Source of the DNA: Candidatus Hermodarchaeota archaeon
Lineage (GTDB): Archaea > Asgardarchaeota > Hermodarchaeia > Hermodarchaeales > Hermodarchaeaceae
DNA: 64,000 nucleotides
Assembly: GCA_016840065.1 (NCBI GenBank)
Contig: JAEOTB010000091.1
Coordinates: 54,233 to 118,232 of the forward strand
Reading direction: 5' to 3'
Shown one piece after another: positions 50,175 to 57,892 of the stretch; position 1 is the first letter of the stretch; every line of letters starts with the position of its first letter. The notes below the pieces were generated by a model. The model did no database searches and was not told where the DNA came from. It saw only the letters and a program-made list of their open reading frames with translations. Position numbers and translations under genes: made by a program.

Positions 50175-52301
50175 TTACAGGGTGAATCTCGGAATCGGAG
50201 GCATATCAGCGACTAATTCTTTCGTCACGGTTTTGTTTTTCAGTTCTACGGCAATCGAAAATAATTCACGGCAATATCTGATTACGTTTCTTGTGTTTCT
50301 CTCTGAGCGCTCATATATCACTTCTATTGCACCAGGTGTAAAACGGGGAACCTCAACATTCCAAGTTTCCATTCGGTAAGATATGAGCTTCTGTATATCC
50401 TTCAAGCTCAAAGGTTTCGGTTTGTATACAAAGTCGTTGAAATTCGCAATCCCGATATAATTTCTCACTGTTGGATGCACCTTCGATCTATATGAAATTA
50501 CAACACCAACTGATGTTAACAACTCCGTCTGAAGGACTTCACGTAATTGGCTAATACTTATCGGTGAAGTTATCCCAAAATCTGAAGGCGTACCAAACAG
50601 TCTGTCAGGAAGTGAATTTTCGAATTCATCAATGATGACTACAATCCCTTTGTAACCAGCTTCCTCTGCTAAACTTTCCAGCTTACCTAAAATCAAAACA
50701 GCATCGCCAGGCGTAAGATTTGGTTCTATGGTTATTTCTTCAATATCTTCCTTCCAATCATCAGGAAAGTTCTTCTTTTCTAATAGTTTTGAAACTAGAT
50801 TGGGTAGGAGATCAGCGCCAAGGGGACATTCAATATAGATTGGTAAAAGATTCATCTCTCTTGCGGCTGGTATAAGTAGATACTTCAGAAGATGGGTTTT
50901 GCCTATACCCTCTTGTCCAACTAAGAATCTGAATTTAAGCACTTCACCCATGAGGATAGAGTTTAAGAATTCTTTGAATGAATAATCAATATCTTCCTGG
51001 TTTATTGTGTAAGGTTCTATCTCGTAAGGAATTGTGAAAATAAAGGGATTAATGGTTTTTACTCTAATAGGTTCAAGTATTAAATTCCGGCTAGTTGAAA
51101 TTAATATACGTTCAAGAGAACTCAGTTCGTATTTAATCGCTTTGAACTTGGAAAGGAATAGCTGAAGGTTAGTTAATTCCTTCTCAATTGTCGCCGTCAT
51201 AGGTAGGTAACAACGACGTTCCATCTGTTTTAATATATCATTCAGTTTAACTGTAAGAAGTATGTAAGAATGTTTAACTATTTTGATATTTCTTTGTTCT
51301 CGCTGCACAATTCGAAGAATAGGTTCTTTGAATTGAAAAAGTGGCGAACGAGGTAATCGCTCACCTTTAAGTGTTCGAATGCCTGTACGAGCGGTTAATA
51401 TTCTTGGAATATTTCTAGCGATTACTTGGCAATTGAGATACTCCTCTTCTGTTTGAGTAAGTGTCTCTGTTACCTTCGCTCTTGTTCTGTCTGCAAGAAA
51501 TCTTCTGTTACGCAAATCTTTGATTGTGTGTTCAACAATTGCTGAAACATCATCAGTTGTTCTAATGAGTGTGGGCGATTTACCCTCGATTCCTGAATAT
51601 CTTGATTGTCTTGGGGCCATCCTAAATCTATCGTGTTCATAATTTTGTAGCGCCTCTGTTAAGAACTCGAAAAACCGATCGGATTCTTCAAAATCATTAT
51701 GAACAATAAGAAAATAATCAATACAATTGAGCAAAGAAGCCATTAAATCAAAGATGGGATAGAACTCTATAGCAAGAATTTCCCTTATTAAACGAGATTT
51801 TCTTTGGTCGATAAATCCAACAGCTATACGGTAATCGCCTTCAGCTATGAAATCAAAAACTCTGCTAGGGGTAACATTGGGAATTGGAGGAAAACCTATT
51901 CGAACATCTATTTCTGGGACGTCTTTTATTTTATATTTGTTTTCTTCAAGTGCCATCTTTACGTTTTCAATTAATCCTTGAATGTCAAGATCAGGAAAAT
52001 CTATTGGAGTTGACATGATTTGTGAAAGGAGTTTATCTGCTCTTGATTGAATTACCTTGAGGAATGGCGCAGCTACTGTAAATCTCGCGGGTCGCCCACG
52101 TGAACGGTAAACTGCACCTTCAGCCTCTAATTGCTTTAGGGTTTGATACACCTTGCTTTTTGATAAATCGGTCTTGCTAGCGATGTAACTTACGTCAGAC
52201 CAGCTATGTTTAATTAGACAAGCTAATATTTCAGCTGAAGAAGCATCTAGACCTAGCGCAATTAATGCTTGAGGGTAAGTGTCAGAGGACAAGGTAGCCA
52301 C
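50175..52301 (-). CDS. TrmB-type wHTH protein with C-terminal P-loop (AAA+-like) ATPase
   Basis: IASKTDLSKSKVYQTLKQLEAEG..GRPARF HTH; Walker A GQEGIGKT; Walker B IVVIIDEFE; RNTRNVIRYC lid. Confidence 0.82.
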   Translation of the reverse strand: MATLSSDTYPQALIALGLDASSAEILACLIKHSWSDVSYIASKTDLSKSKVYQTLKQLEAEGAVYRSRGRPARFTVAAPFLKVIQSRADKLLSQIMSTPIDFPDLDIQGLIENVKMALEENKYKIKDVPEIDVRIGFPPIPNVTPSRVFDFIAEGDYRIAVGFIDQRKSRLIREILAIEFYPIFDLMASLLNCIDYFLIVHNDFEESDRFFEFLTEALQNYEHDRFRMAPRQSRYSGIEGKSPTLIRTTDDVSAIVEHTIKDLRNRRFLADRTRAKVTETLTQTEEEYLNCQVIARNIPRILTARTGIRTLKGERLPRSPLFQFKEPILRIVQREQRNIKIVKHSYILLTVKLNDILKQMERRCYLPMTATIEKELTNLQLFLSKFKAIKYELSSLERILISTSRNLILEPIRVKTINPFIFTIPYEIEPYTINQEDIDYSFKEFLNSILMGEVLKFRFLVGQEGIGKTHLLKYLLIPAAREMNLLPIYIECPLGADLLPNLVSKLLEKKNFPDDWKEDIEEITIEPNLTPGDAVLILGKLESLAEEAGYKGIVVIIDEFENSLPDRLFGTPSDFGITSPISISQLREVLQTELLTSVGVVISYRSKVHPTVRNYIGIANFNDFVYKPKPLSLKDIQKLISYRMETWNVEVPRFTPGAIEVIYERSERNTRNVIRYCRELFSIAVELKNKTVTKELVADMPPIPRFTL

Positions 52302-52308
52302 CTTGAAG

Positions 52309-52394
52309 TGGCGCCGGGAGCGGGACTTGAACCCACGCGGTGATAAACACCACGGGCTTAGGAGGCCCGCGCTTTGCCACTAAGCAATCCCGGC
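52309..52394 (-). tRNA. tRNA with CCU (Arg) anticodon on a tRNA-Ser-type body
   Basis: GCCGGGA/TCCCGGC acceptor, G73, CGGGC-CTCCTAA-GCCCG, long variable arm GGTG-TTTAT-CACC, encoded CCA, TTTAAA TATA about 30 nt upstream. Confidence 0.88.
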
Positions 52395-52902
52395 GCTATA
52401 ATGCATTTCTATTTGCTACTTTAAATACTTTTCCACGGTGTAAAAGTATCGGTTCAAATAAAAGCAATGTTGATAAGTCGAAACAAGAACAGGTTACTGC
52501 CACTAAGCAATCCCTTCCGCCTACTCAGCTATTTGAGAGGCGGAGTTATTTTTTATTTGTCTGATTACACGAGCTAATCATCTTTTTAATCAGAAGAAGA
52601 CATCAGGTACTCACTTTCGAATTTAGTACCAGCATATTTTTACCCTGTTTTTCACGCAAGAAAGGAATTCGAAATATGATTGCCTTCGAATAATCAGTAC
52701 AACTACAAATGCCGTGTAAGAAGTATTTAGGGTAGTATAGTCGAAGTCTAGCATTTTTTATATCTTGATATTGCGAAATGAACAAGGGCTTACGAAAAGG
52801 AAGGCTTTTTAAATAATCCATATTATTCGAAAGAAAGCAGATTTCATTAGGTAATAATCTGTTTTCTAGAGCATTTAGTAAAACGAGGGAAGTATTGTCA
52901 AA

Positions 52903-56291: not shown

Positions 56292-56324
56292 AATTAGATA
56301 ATCAACATTTACAGAGGAAGAAGA

Positions 56325-56732
56325 ATGAGTCAGCTTGGATCACTTTCGGGGAAAATACAACGGGAAATAGAACTTCTTAGAACCTTAAACGATTCGCTCC
56401 TAATTCTTCAAGTGCATGCGCTAGGAAGAGATTCAGAACTTGATATTTCCTTAGAAGATGTTACTCGGAGTTATCAATTCATCATTGATTTTGCGACGAG
56501 ATTATCATCTGCTCTAAAGGAGCAAACTCGAGTTCTAGATTTTGAACCGCTCATACATCATTTCGAGAGTGGAATGAAACCAATTGAAGATTGGATTGAA
56601 GATCTTGAAACATTGATTCGACAACTCAAAACTGATGAACTTGATTATGAAACTGTTGTAATCTTAGAAGAAATCCTCTCGCTACTTGATGAGCAATTTA
56701 CTGAAGATTTTCGAATGCTTTATTTCCGATAG
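56325..56732 (+). CDS. Acidic all-helical hypothetical protein in the Argonaute operon
   Basis: 135 aa, 33 bp after ago, GAGG SD-like sequence. Confidence 0.75.
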   Translation: MSQLGSLSGKIQREIELLRTLNDSLLILQVHALGRDSELDISLEDVTRSYQFIIDFATRLSSALKEQTRVLDFEPLIHHFESGMKPIEDWIEDLETLIRQLKTDELDYETVVILEEILSLLDEQFTEDFRMLYFR

Positions 56733-56740
56733 GTGTCACC

Positions 56741-57892
56741 ATGTGGGATTACCTGACCTCGAAAATTGCAGAATATTCAATCATAATAAATTGGCTAGAA
56801 CAAAAAATAACTGCACTAGAAGTTAGAAGCCACAGAGAGCTTGTTAGATATCTTTTATCGAAAATAGAAGAGCTAAGAACTCGTCATAATCGCCTCTGTG
56901 CAATCGTTCGAATCCGAGACGACAGACTTATTCCACGAGCATTAATTAAGATTCACGAAATAGAATACCTAGCCTACGTTCTGAAATGCTTCTATATCTC
57001 TGGATTAATACGAGAAAGCGAAGATGATGAATTTATAAGAAATCTGATAACATCTGAGTTACAGAGATTAAATCTATCTTGGATACGCGACATTCTGATT
57101 CGTCTTGATGGCCCTTATGCCACATTTCTAGGATTAACTACAAAATTCCCTATCATCATCGCCCCACCTATTCAAGCTGAATCACTTTTACAATTAACTG
57201 CAACTTATCACGAATTAGGACATAACGTCTTTTCACACTTTGATGATATCGGAAACGAGTTAGCAAATTTAGTAGCTCAACACTTTGCAAGGCTATTACT
57301 TGAAGCTGCACCAATGCAACCCGAAATGAGGGACACTCGTAGCAGCCAAATTTTGGCTGCTGTAGGTCATTGGTCCGTGCAAAGACTGAACGAGCTTTTC
57401 TCTGATGTTTTTGCTGCGTATCTTTGTGGTCCTGCCTATTATATCTCCTTCGTAGATATCATGATTAAATTATGCGACAAACCATTTCTTGTGAATGACA
57501 CGCACCCATCTGCTGACGCTAGGATTTTAACGATACATAAGGCGTTATTACAAATTCATAAGGATAATGAAATGGTTAGACGGTTCCATAATTTTTGGGA
57601 TATATTCATAGAAAACAAAGAGAAACCACCTATTCACGACCTTATTTTTGCACCTAACCTTCTAGAAAATTTAGCGGAAAAAAGCATAGAACTCATTACA
57701 CAAATCCTAACAAATACACCAAGATATTCAGAATCTGTTACATACTCCCCGAGAATAGGGAGAATTTTAAATTCGGATTCCCTTGTATCGATTCTGAACA
57801 AAGGAGTACAAATTTTATTATACGCTCCTGATTCTTACTTAGAATGGGAAGAAAAAGCGCTTAAAAATCTCAAATCGAGAGAGCCTCCCTAA
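56741..57892 (+). CDS. Putative zinc metalloprotease (HExxH, gluzincin-like) in the Argonaute operon
   Basis: YHELGHN, NELFSDVFA third-ligand motif, THPSADARI; 8 bp after previous gene. Confidence 0.78.
   Translation: MWDYLTSKIAEYSIIINWLEQKITALEVRSHRELVRYLLSKIEELRTRHNRLCAIVRIRDDRLIPRALIKIHEIEYLAYVLKCFYISGLIRESEDDEFIRNLITSELQRLNLSWIRDILIRLDGPYATFLGLTTKFPIIIAPPIQAESLLQLTATYHELGHNVFSHFDDIGNELANLVAQHFARLLLEAAPMQPEMRDTRSSQILAAVGHWSVQRLNELFSDVFAAYLCGPAYYISFVDIMIKLCDKPFLVNDTHPSADARILTIHKALLQIHKDNEMVRRFHNFWDIFIENKEKPPIHDLIFAPNLLENLAEKSIELITQILTNTPRYSESVTYSPRIGRILNSDSLVSILNKGVQILLYAPDSYLEWEEKALKNLKSREPP

What the first reader, a model, noticed from the sequence alone, without database searches (positions are those of the whole stretch)
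50175..57892. Candidate new Argonaute defence system: Cas4-like nuclease, long pAgo, helical protein and metalloprotease, with a divergent tRNA and HTH-ATPase
Seen: four co-oriented genes with a GTGA overlap and 33- and 8-bp gaps in an AT-rich island. The pAgo keeps PAZ and three catalytic Asp (GID 55566, RDG 55767, WTD 56184); I could not place the Glu finger with certainty. The upstream nuclease has four Fe-S Cys. Known: long-A pAgos are guide-dependent nucleases and some co-occur with Cas4-like nucleases. Inference: I do not know of a described pAgo operon that also has an HExxH protease, a small helical partner and a divergent TrmB-ATPase/tRNA unit. It may link target recognition to proteolytic signalling or abortive infection in an Asgard-like host.
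Basis: partly seen in the sequence, partly recalled or inferred. Interest (0 to 1): 0.92.

Follow-up and report, generated by a model that had tools for sequence, protein, structure and literature searches.

The report
Four-gene Argonaute cassette with protease pair
An archaeal genome carries a horizontally acquired Argonaute defence cassette of a known RNA-cutting type, and its two unnamed downstream genes, a small helical protein and a likely zinc protease predicted to bind each other, prove to be conserved partners of this Argonaute class across bacteria and archaea, which the papers I could search do not describe.

Summary
Four co-oriented genes lie in a low-GC island: a Cas4-like Fe-S nuclease, an approximately 800-aa pAgo, a 135-aa helical protein and a 383-aa HExxH protein.

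The pAgo is not a new kind. It is about 50% identical to VbAgo, a structurally solved DNA-guided RNA-cleaving Argonaute, and keeps the full DEDD tetrad. The missing Glu finger is E602. Nuclease plus pAgo matches PADLOC class II, the 'D-R pAgo' and APACE2 operons of the literature.

The two downstream genes are the new part.
- They sit beside class-II pAgos in 22 of 24 loci with 3.5 kb or more on both sides, and in 13 of 13 with that much upstream only. This holds in both the VbAgo and PliAgo groups and despite gene-order changes.
- Across 801 genomes in two phyla, four carry both pAgo and HExxH protein and none carries one alone.
- All 114 full-length family representatives keep HExxH and the downstream Glu. 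The motif order is M48/Lit-like, but statistical and fold support is weak.
- A complex model (0.84, best control 0.00) places the small protein's N-terminus in the metal site.
- One variant fuses a CHAT protease domain.

The tRNA and the HTH-ATPase are not conserved parts. My best reading is a proteolytic effector or regulatory arm on an RNA-targeting Argonaute. That mechanism is inferred.

The parts
52903..53889 (+). Cas4-family PD-(D/E)XK nuclease with an Fe-S 'iron staple' (ACE2-like, 328 aa)
   Evidence: Pfam PDDEXK_1 at 6.8e-13. PADLOC Aga_Cas4-like_Nuc (class II) at 2.1e-25. Cys16 and C313xxC316x5C322, plus D...DWK. It sits directly upstream of the pAgo in nearly all related loci.
53886..56291 (+). 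Long-A pAgo of the VbAgo group, with an intact DEDD tetrad and an acidic C-terminal tail. The likely start is GTG 53886, overlapping the nuclease stop; the longest ORF starts at TTG 53865.
   Evidence: PDB VbAgo 9v65 at E 3.5e-185, aligned over residues 13-788. PADLOC pAgo_II at 8.3e-61. D568/E602/D635/D774, conserved in all 14 VbAgo-group pAgos aligned. Thirteen of the last 29 residues are acidic.
56325..56732 (+). 135-aa all-helical partner protein with a conserved N-terminus (MSxLGxxSGxLxRE) and C-terminus (LYxR)
   Evidence: No Pfam or PADLOC hit. Conserved in 15 aligned loci. Homologous to the small proteins of PliAgo-type cassettes (hhalign 92%, E 6.3e-7). Predicted to bind the HExxH protein.
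56741..57892 (+). 383-aa soluble helical protein: an N-terminal three-helix bundle and a C-terminal gluzincin-like domain (H157-E158-x-x-H161, N217-E218-x-x-S-D222, H255-P256...R261)
   Evidence: AF2 model pLDDT 86. The motifs are invariant in 26 sequences. HExxH and E218 are kept in 114/114 family representatives. Weak M48 signals appear.

Best explanation
This is a horizontally acquired four-gene class-II (D-R / APACE2-type) prokaryotic Argonaute defence cassette.

Step 1 (inferred from the ACE1 precedent): the Cas4-family Fe-S nuclease makes or trims small 5'-phosphorylated DNA guides from invader DNA.

Step 2 (inferred from about 50% identity to VbAgo and an intact DEDD tetrad): the pAgo loads these DNA guides and slices complementary invader RNA.

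Step 3 (new, inferred): the last two genes encode a heterodimer. A soluble M48/Lit-like zinc metallopeptidase is held by a 135-aa helical partner whose conserved N-terminal segment lies in the catalytic cleft, as a plug or a substrate. I propose this pair is the output or regulatory arm of the system. Target engagement by the Ago would release or redirect the protease, which then cleaves the partner or a host or Ago target. That would amplify RNA recognition into a proteolytic response, in the manner of the protease arms of type III CRISPR systems.

The upstream tRNA and the HTH-ATPase are neighbours in the same island, not components.

The confidence of 0.55 is for the whole statement. I put the four-gene composition and the Ago and nuclease identities at about 0.9, the 383-aa protein being a real zinc peptidase bound to the 135-aa partner at about 0.7, and the pair being the target-triggered output arm at about 0.35.
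For: **Composition and linkage**
- The four genes recur in the same order in genome loci from Nitrosotalea, Thermodesulfobacteriota, Chloroflexi, Cyanobacteria, Longimicrobiaceae and Gemmatimonadota, and in many metagenome contigs.
- A class-II pAgo lies next door in 22 of 24 loci with at least 3.5 kb on both sides, and in 13 of 13 with that much upstream only.
- Linkage survives rearrangement: I counted 31 standard, 3 convergent and 1 permuted layouts.
- Whole-genome counts agree. In the host's phylum 2 of 400 genomes carry both the pAgo and the HExxH protein, in a second phylum 2 of 401 do, and none carries only one.
- The same architecture holds for a PliAgo-type pAgo only 23% identical to this one. 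Its small protein is homologous to the 135-aa protein.
- Divergence of the four proteins is correlated across 29 loci, with Spearman coefficients of 0.61-0.85.

**Ago identity**. VbAgo activity is described in PMC10448046 and PMC13219720.

**Nuclease role**: ACE1 processes siDNA guides and binds its pAgo (PMC12094033).

**Protease**
- H157, E158, H161 and E218 are kept in 114 of 114 full-length representatives. D222 is kept in 99%, H255 in 96% and R261 in 99%.
- The motif order HExxH..ExxxD..HPxxxxR matches 14 bona fide M48 domains.
- Weak M48 signals come from three methods: Pfam E 0.027, atlas TM 0.55, and ZMPSTE24 Z 4.0 with BepA Z 3.9.

**Complex**
- ipSAE is 0.84 and the best of three controls is 0.00. 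That mark was reached by 58 of 80 solved complexes and 2 of 110 mismatched pairs.
- The runs agree in at least 91% of contacts, and the partner's pLDDT is at least 85.
- Partner residues 1-13 touch H157, E158, H161, E218 and H255.

**Effector hint**: a PliAgo-type cassette carries this protein fused to a CHAT caspase-like domain.
Against: - No experiment bears on steps 1 or 3.
- Membership of the HExxH protein in any peptidase family is not statistically established. Pfam M48 scores 14.7 bits against a 20.3 cut-off. hhalign gives 4% probability to M48 and 2.7% to Lit. Foldseek finds no PDB hit.
- The complex score is a model's own confidence, and it was obtained with my own alignments.
- The pair occurs without any class-II pAgo in one Methanobacterium lineage. 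More distant 'small protein plus 450-470-aa HExxH' pairs occur in non-Ago contexts. The module can therefore exist, and perhaps act, on its own.
- VbAgo cleaves RNA in vitro without partners. The pair is not needed for slicing.
Confidence: 0.55

Rival explanations
1. The protease pair tunes the Argonaute itself rather than acting as an effector. For example, it could remove the auto-inhibitory acidic C-terminal tail of the pAgo, or help assemble the Ago-nuclease complex.
For: VbAgo's acidic C-terminus (residues 764-782) is auto-inhibitory (PMC13219720). This pAgo and most cassette relatives keep an acidic tail; here 13 of the last 29 residues are acidic. The pair is strictly linked to the pAgo.
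Against: Some cassette pAgos have short or non-acidic tails (L003, L019) yet keep the pair. The model puts the small partner's N-terminus, not an Ago tail, in the cleft. The pair also persists without a pAgo in Methanobacterium.
Confidence: 0.17
2. The pair is a transcriptional switch of the CapH/CapP or anti-sigma type. The protease would cleave a repressor or release a sigma-like regulator to turn on the operon or a stress response.
For: XRE/CapH-like HTH genes precede the cassette in PliAgo-type and some VbAgo-type loci (PADLOC capH 3.2e-12). The literature reports an HTH regulator or a sigma-70 factor in D-R pAgo operons (PMC9360449). One distant pair lies about 600 nt from an ECF-type sigma gene.
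Against: This window and its closest relatives have no such HTH gene upstream, whereas the small helical partner is universal. The small protein matches no anti-sigma or HTH family.
Confidence: 0.12
3. The pair is an independent two-gene module, toxin-antitoxin-like or a separate defence gene pair, that merely travels beside the pAgo in defence islands.
For: An orphan pair sits next to type I R-M and GmrSD genes in Methanobacterium, with no class-II pAgo in that genome. Distant pairs lack a pAgo, and one lies next to a dCTP-deaminase-like gene.
Against: The close family shows near-perfect co-occurrence and adjacency with class-II pAgos across phyla, two Ago groups and three gene orders. Gaps within the cassette are 8-33 nt. 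Divergence of the four proteins is correlated.
Confidence: 0.08
4. One reading: a six-part system in which the divergent tRNA and the TrmB-HTH/AAA ATPase belong to the Argonaute system.
For: They are adjacent and lie in the same low-GC island.
Against: No ATPase homologue appears in any related locus. Genomes of the host's family match only its HTH part. A tRNA lies nearby in 1 of 18 loci.
Confidence: 0.03

Closest known systems
VbAgo (Verrucomicrobia pAgo; PDB 9v65 and related entries; PMC10448046, PMC13219720)
   Same: Full-length homology at E 3.5e-185 and about 50% identity. Same DEDD tetrad and acidic C-terminal tail. By homology, the same DNA-guided RNA cleavage is expected.
   Different: VbAgo has been studied only as a lone enzyme, and neither paper mentions an operon. 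Here the Ago is one of four conserved genes. Activity of this copy was not tested.
D-R pAgo operons of the PliAgo and PnyAgo groups (Lisitskaya et al. 2022, PMC9360449); PADLOC 'class II' argonaute (pAgo_II + Aga_Cas4-like_Nuc)
   Same: A PD-(D/E)XK Cas4-like nuclease directly upstream of a catalytically intact pAgo. The distribution across phyla points to horizontal transfer. An HTH regulator is present in some loci.
   Different: The published text names only the nuclease and a regulator or sigma factor. PADLOC has no models for the 135-aa and 383-aa proteins. I find both in VbAgo-type and PliAgo-type cassettes.
APACE1/APACE2 (long-A pAgo plus Argonaute-associated Cas4 family enzyme; Bobadilla Ugarte et al. 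2025, PMC12094033)
   Same: A Cas4-family Fe-S nuclease with a D-DxK motif is co-encoded with a long-A pAgo. At 328 aa it fits ACE2 (mean 313 aa) better than ACE1 (mean 278 aa).
   Different: APACE1 is a two-protein, DNA-targeting system. APACE2 is uncharacterised, and the paper does not describe the extra pair. ACE2 clade membership was not tested by phylogeny.
M48 metallopeptidases (HtpX, Ste24, BepA) and the Lit cell-death peptidase (U49) of prophage e14
   Same: The same motif order, HExxH ... E-x-x-(A/S)-D ... HPxxxxR. Lit is a precedent for such a protease acting in phage exclusion.
   Different: The protein is soluble, carries an N-terminal three-helix bundle, and has shorter motif spacing. 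It scores below Pfam's M48 threshold, and profile and fold matches are weak.
Protease arms of type III CRISPR systems (Craspase/TPR-CHAT-Csx30, CalpL-CalpT-CalpS, SAVED-CHAT); comparison from my own knowledge
   Same: An RNA-targeting guided nuclease is co-encoded with a protease and a small partner protein. One Ago-cassette variant fuses a CHAT domain to this protein.
   Different: The sensor is an Argonaute with DNA guides, and the protease is zincin-like rather than a caspase or Lon type. No coupling between target binding and proteolysis has been shown.

Membership tests
Long-A pAgo, DNA-guided RNA-cleaving (gD-tR) group of VbAgo | Full N-L1-PAZ-L2-MID-PIWI architecture homologous to a characterised member | tested here: met
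   phmmer against PDB: VbAgo 9v65 at E 3.5e-185, query residues 13-788 aligned to chain residues 4-770.
Long-A pAgo, DNA-guided RNA-cleaving (gD-tR) group of VbAgo | Intact DEDX catalytic tetrad | tested here: met
   D568, E602, D635 and D774 align with VbAgo D550, E584, D617 and D756. They are conserved in the 14 VbAgo-group cassette pAgos aligned.
Long-A pAgo, DNA-guided RNA-cleaving (gD-tR) group of VbAgo | [quoted passage not shown] | not testable with these tools
   Inferred only from about 50% identity to VbAgo.
PADLOC class II argonaute / D-R pAgo operon / APACE2 | Cas4-family nuclease gene directly upstream of the pAgo, in the same orientation | tested here: met
   PADLOC Aga_Cas4-like_Nuc at 2.1e-25 and pAgo_II at 8.3e-61. 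The two genes overlap at GTGA.
PADLOC class II argonaute / D-R pAgo operon / APACE2 | Nuclease keeps the four Fe-S cysteines and the D...(D/E)xK motif | tested here: met
   C16, C313, C316 and C322, with VDL...FDWK. The features are as described for ACE proteins in PMC12094033.
PADLOC class II argonaute / D-R pAgo operon / APACE2 | Nuclease falls in the ACE2 clade of the Cas4 family tree | not tested
   Only its length (328 aa) and its best PADLOC model (308 positions) suggest ACE2. No reference ACE sequences were on hand.
Gluzincin metallopeptidase, M48-like | HExxH plus a downstream Glu as third metal ligand, both invariant | tested here: met
   H157, E158, H161 and E218 are kept in 114 of 114 full-length representatives. 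N-E-x-x-S-D lies around E218.
Gluzincin metallopeptidase, M48-like | C-terminal HPxxxxR motif, in the same order as in M48 domains | tested here: met
   H255-P256...R261 are 96-99% conserved. All 14 bona fide M48 domains examined have HExxH and HPxxxxR, and hhalign puts the E..D and HP..R motifs in register.
Gluzincin metallopeptidase, M48-like | Scores above Pfam PF01435's gathering threshold | tested here: not met
   14.7 bits against a cut-off of 20.3, E 0.027, in 1 of 16 members.
Gluzincin metallopeptidase, M48-like | Zincin fold match to solved M48 structures | tested here: inconclusive
   ZMPSTE24 at Z 4.0 (117 aligned, rmsd 8.3) and BepA at Z 3.9 (131 aligned, rmsd 7.3). Atlas M48 cluster at TM 0.55 by the target. 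Foldseek finds nothing in the PDB.
Lit / Peptidase_U49 | Profile-level homology to E. coli Lit | tested here: inconclusive
   hhalign probability is 2.7%, and only the THPxxxxRI segment aligns. Language-model look-alike scores are 0.78-0.80, which is a lead only.
CapH/CapP-type regulatory pair | XRE/CapH-like HTH gene next to the protease operon | tested here: not met
   Absent upstream of the cassette in this window. Present in other branches.

The most novel reading that the evidence does not exclude
RNA-targeting (DNA-guided) Argonautes of the VbAgo and PliAgo groups are natively sensors of a four-protein system. Its output is proteolysis: target RNA binding releases a plugged M48/Lit-like metalloprotease, fused to CHAT in some variants. 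The protease then cleaves its small partner or host proteins to trigger a transcriptional or abortive-infection response. This would be an Argonaute counterpart of Craspase and other type III CRISPR protease cascades.
Probability: 0.3. Interest if true: 0.9.

Novelty: new variant of a known kind. Interest (0 to 1): 0.72.

Why it matters
VbAgo, PliAgo and their relatives are being developed as programmable RNA-cutting tools and have been studied as lone enzymes. The data here show that in nature they are almost always encoded with a Cas4-family nuclease and with a conserved, apparently undescribed protease-partner pair.

If the pair is the system's output or control arm, three things follow:
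- Catalytically active long-A pAgos could no longer be treated as stand-alone immune nucleases.
- Argonaute immunity would be linked to proteolytic signalling, so far known from type III CRISPR systems.
- A family of about 1,300 sequence clusters of unannotated HExxH proteins would gain a function to test.

It also gives a concrete four-gene construct for such tests.

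Tried and rejected
**Searches that found nothing useful**
- Pfam, PADLOC and PDB sequence searches gave no significant hit for the 135-aa and 383-aa proteins.
- Foldseek against the PDB found no match at E 0.001 or better, for the whole model or for the C-domain.
- With the whole model, the VIA-align wide search was filled by generic three-helix bundles matching residues 1-110. 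With the C-domain alone, the best Z was 5.0, on a 48-residue helical hairpin.
- hhalign against E. coli Lit and against 14 M48 domains gave low probabilities.
- The language-model atlas search for the 135-aa protein gave scores of only 0.81, with low recognition.
- A literature search for Argonaute with 'DNA-guided RNA', operon and protease found no paper; pAgos with metallopeptidase, and prokaryotic Argonaute with CHAT, returned only papers that do not describe the pair.

**Ideas rejected**
- ATPase and tRNA as system parts.
- The 17-nt tRNA repeat as the boundary of the Ago island. The two copies are only 123 nt apart and there is no third copy.

**Not done**
- Host taxonomy ('Asgard-like') was not tested.
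- The native locus of VbAgo itself could not be fetched.
- PnyAgo-group (sigma-factor) operons were not examined directly.

Full report
**1. What is in the window**

Between about 50 and 58 kb the GC content drops to 0.35-0.42. The flanks are at 0.45-0.59.

On the plus strand lie four tightly packed genes:
- 52903-53889, 328 aa
- 53865 or 53886-56291, 808 or 801 aa
- 56325-56732, 135 aa
- 56741-57892, 383 aa

The second gene's GTG at 53886 overlaps the first gene's TGA, giving GTGA. The next two gaps are 33 and 8 nt.

On the minus strand lie a tRNA-Arg(CCT) at 52309-52394 and a 708-aa TrmB-HTH plus AAA ATPase gene at 50175-52301.

**2. The Argonaute and the nuclease are of a known kind**

The 808-aa protein matches PADLOC pAgo_II at 8.3e-61. 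It aligns over its whole length with the solved VbAgo (PDB 9v65) at E 3.5e-185.

VbAgo is a mesophilic DNA-guided RNA-cleaving pAgo. Its tetrad is D550/E584/D617/D756, and its acidic C-terminus is auto-inhibitory (PMC10448046; PMC13219720). The corresponding residues here are D568, E602, D635 and D774. The tetrad is intact in all 14 VbAgo-group cassette pAgos I aligned, and most keep an acidic tail.

The 328-aa protein is a PD-(D/E)XK nuclease (Pfam 6.8e-13). It matches PADLOC's class II Aga_Cas4-like_Nuc at 2.1e-25. It has the one-plus-three cysteine pattern and the D...DxK motif.

The literature already describes this pairing:
- D-R pAgos of the PliAgo and PnyAgo groups are preceded by a Cas4-like nuclease and accompanied by an HTH regulator or a sigma factor (PMC9360449).
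- Swarts and colleagues named the nucleases ACE1 and ACE2. They showed that ACE1 processes siDNA guides and binds its pAgo, and left APACE2 uncharacterised (PMC12094033).

**3. The two downstream genes are conserved members of the cassette**

The 383-aa protein has few close relatives in the word-indexed protein search: 16 proteins at E 0.001 or better, counting the window's own. Every long contig carrying one shows the same order: PDDEXK_1, an approximately 800-aa gene, an approximately 136-aa gene, then the approximately 385-aa gene.

A scan of species-representative genomes found 13 loci. They come from Nitrosotalea, Thermodesulfobacteriota, Chloroflexi, several Cyanobacteria, Longimicrobiaceae, Gemmatimonadota and Methanobacterium. 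A metagenome scan found 63 more.

Linkage counts:
- Of loci with at least 3.5 kb on both sides, 22 of 24 carry the pAgo next door.
- Of loci with that much upstream only, 13 of 13 do.
- The two exceptions are one Methanobacterium lineage. There the pair sits beside type I R-M and GmrSD genes, and the complete genome has no class-II pAgo.

Linkage survives rearrangement. Besides the standard order there are convergent layouts and a permuted HTH, small protein, HExxH, nuclease, Ago layout.

Whole-genome counts agree:
- In 400 genomes of the host's phylum, the same two genomes have both the pAgo and the HExxH protein. No genome has only one.
- In 401 genomes of a second phylum, sampled around the Microcoleus locus, the result is again two with both and none with one.

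The second genome of the host's phylum carries a PliAgo-type pAgo. It matches 7r8k at 7e-110 and is only 23% identical to ours, yet it has the same four-gene order plus a CapH-like HTH. Three more distant family members sampled at random all sit behind PliAgo-type pAgos, with a 124-147-aa gene in between. These small proteins are homologous to the 135-aa protein (hhalign 92%, E 6.3e-7).

An exhaustive profile search finds about 1,300 cluster representatives at E 0.001 or better, and 87 at 1e-30 or better.

**4. What the pair looks like**

The 383-aa protein folds with confidence (pLDDT 86, pTM 0.84). It has an N-terminal three-helix bundle and a helical C-domain.

H157, E158, H161 and E218 are present in 114 of 114 full-length representatives. 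D222, G230, H255, P256 and R261 are kept in 96-100%.

The motifs read HExxH, then N-E-x-x-S-D, then H-P-x-x-x-x-R.
- From my own knowledge, HExxH followed by ExxxD is the gluzincin signature of thermolysin and neprilysin.
- HExxH ... E..AD ... HPxxxxR is the order seen in M48 peptidases.
- All 14 bona fide M48 domains I extracted show HExxH and HPxxxxR. hhalign aligns the last two motifs in register.
- E. coli Lit aligns at the THPxxxxRI segment only.

The statistics are weak:
- Pfam M48: 14.7 bits against a cut-off of 20.3
- hhalign probabilities: 4% (M48) and 2.7% (Lit)
- VIA-align: Z about 4 for ZMPSTE24 and BepA
- Atlas M48 cluster: TM 0.55
- Foldseek: no hit

I therefore call the protein M48/Lit-like by motif architecture. 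It is probably a zinc peptidase (about 75%), but it is not a demonstrated member of any family.

The 135-aa protein is all-helical with strictly conserved ends. It has no recognisable family.

**5. The two proteins are predicted to bind, with the partner's N-terminus in the metal site**

The complex model scored 0.84, and the best of three controls scored 0.00.
- That mark was reached by 58 of 80 solved complexes and by 2 of 110 mismatched pairs.
- The runs agree in at least 91% of contacts, and the partner's pLDDT is at least 85.
- My own alignments were used, so these counts hold only roughly.

Partner residues 1-13 touch H157, E158, H161, E218, H255 and the otherwise disordered loop 125-134. 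The partner's helices pack on the three-helix bundle.

This is the geometry expected for a substrate or a pseudo-substrate plug. It is a prediction, not a measurement.

**6. Mechanism**

- *Shown by homology:* an intact slicer of the DNA-guide, RNA-target type, and a Cas4-family Fe-S nuclease.
- *Inferred from ACE1:* the nuclease supplies guides.
- *Inferred here:* the protease-partner heterodimer is the output or control arm.

A PliAgo-type cassette in which this protein carries a C-terminal CHAT domain (PF12770 at 4.3e-9; HExxH retained) supports an effector-protease reading. From my own knowledge, it also recalls the protease arms of type III CRISPR systems.

Rival readings cannot be excluded:
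- The protease trims the Ago's auto-inhibitory tail.
- The pair is a CapH/CapP-like or anti-sigma-like transcriptional switch, suggested by the HTH or sigma genes in some operons.
- The pair is an independent two-gene module, suggested by the orphan pair and by distant pairs without a pAgo.

**7. What is not part of it**

The HTH-ATPase has no homologue in any related locus. In the host's own family only its HTH part finds matches. A tRNA lies near the cassette in 1 of 18 loci.

Neither the HExxH protein nor the class-II pAgo was found in the other 18 genomes of the host's family, and the ATPase has no full-length homologue there. With the low GC, this points to horizontal acquisition.

A 165-nt direct repeat at 90% identity (49815-49979 and 63286-63450) brackets 13.5 kb that includes the island. 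A 17-nt piece of the tRNA is duplicated 123 nt away.

**8. Novelty and verdict**

The core is known, and the Ago's closest relative has been solved. Three points appear undescribed in the papers I could search:
- The pair is a conserved component of class-II (D-R) pAgo cassettes.
- Its motif architecture is M48/Lit-like.
- It is predicted to form a plugged heterodimer.

Lisitskaya et al. do state that the operons have 'the same gene composition', so unlabelled genes may appear in their figure, which I could not see.

I rate this a new variant of a known kind, with interest 0.72.

Noticed in passing
L028:8001-9830 (protein P0126), within L028:3920-9830: In a PliAgo-type cassette (HTH, split Cas4-like gene, 800-aa pAgo, 124-aa gene), the HExxH family protein is 609 aa and carries a C-terminal CHAT caspase-like domain (PF12770 at 4.3e-9). 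It keeps HELAH.
   Followed up: partly
L018:9588-11161 and L064:7588-9161: An orphan pair (134 aa + 386 aa) lacks the nuclease and pAgo. It lies next to type I R-M and GmrSD genes in Methanobacterium sp. ACI-7. The complete genome has no class-II pAgo.
   Followed up: partly
L090:1286-3765, L091:6815-8658, L093:2725-6082: Distant relatives form 'approximately 150-aa gene + 447-470-aa HExxH gene' pairs outside any Ago context. One is followed by a dCTP-deaminase-like gene. One lies about 600 nt from an ECF-type sigma factor gene.
   Followed up: partly
window 52375-52391 and 52498-52514: An exact 17-nt direct repeat. One copy lies in the 5' part of tRNA-Arg(CCT) and the other 123 nt away in the intergenic region. 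No shuffle gave two matches. It may be an old attachment-site remnant.
   Followed up: partly
window 49815-49979 and 63286-63450: A 165-nt direct repeat at 90% identity brackets 13.5 kb. The bracketed stretch holds the ATPase, the tRNA, the Ago cassette, a 1021-aa HerA-like gene and a 793-aa HTH gene. The right copy is the 3' end of the 793-aa ORF.
   Followed up: no
window 50175-52301 (-): A 708-aa TrmB-HTH plus AAA_16/ATPase_2/ORC-Cdc6-like ATPase lies in the low-GC island. It has no full-length homologue in 18 genomes of the host's family. Its start is 7 nt from the tRNA's 3' end. Its function is unknown.
   Followed up: partly
L022:6814-9234: The PliAgo-type pAgo of a genome in the host's phylum reads RQG where the third tetrad Asp (RDG) is expected. 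It may be catalytically inactive, yet it keeps all four cassette genes.
   Followed up: no
L005:7158-9571; L012:6080-7029 and 9611-9871: Decayed copies. In L005 the pAgo is split into two ORFs of 390 and 415 aa. In L012 (Okeania) the nuclease matches in two frames and the small protein is truncated.
   Followed up: no
L008:13804-13880: A tRNA-Arg(CCT), the same anticodon as in the window, lies 2.6 kb downstream of the cassette in a Thermodesulfobacteriota genome. It is the only other tRNA seen near a cassette.
   Followed up: no
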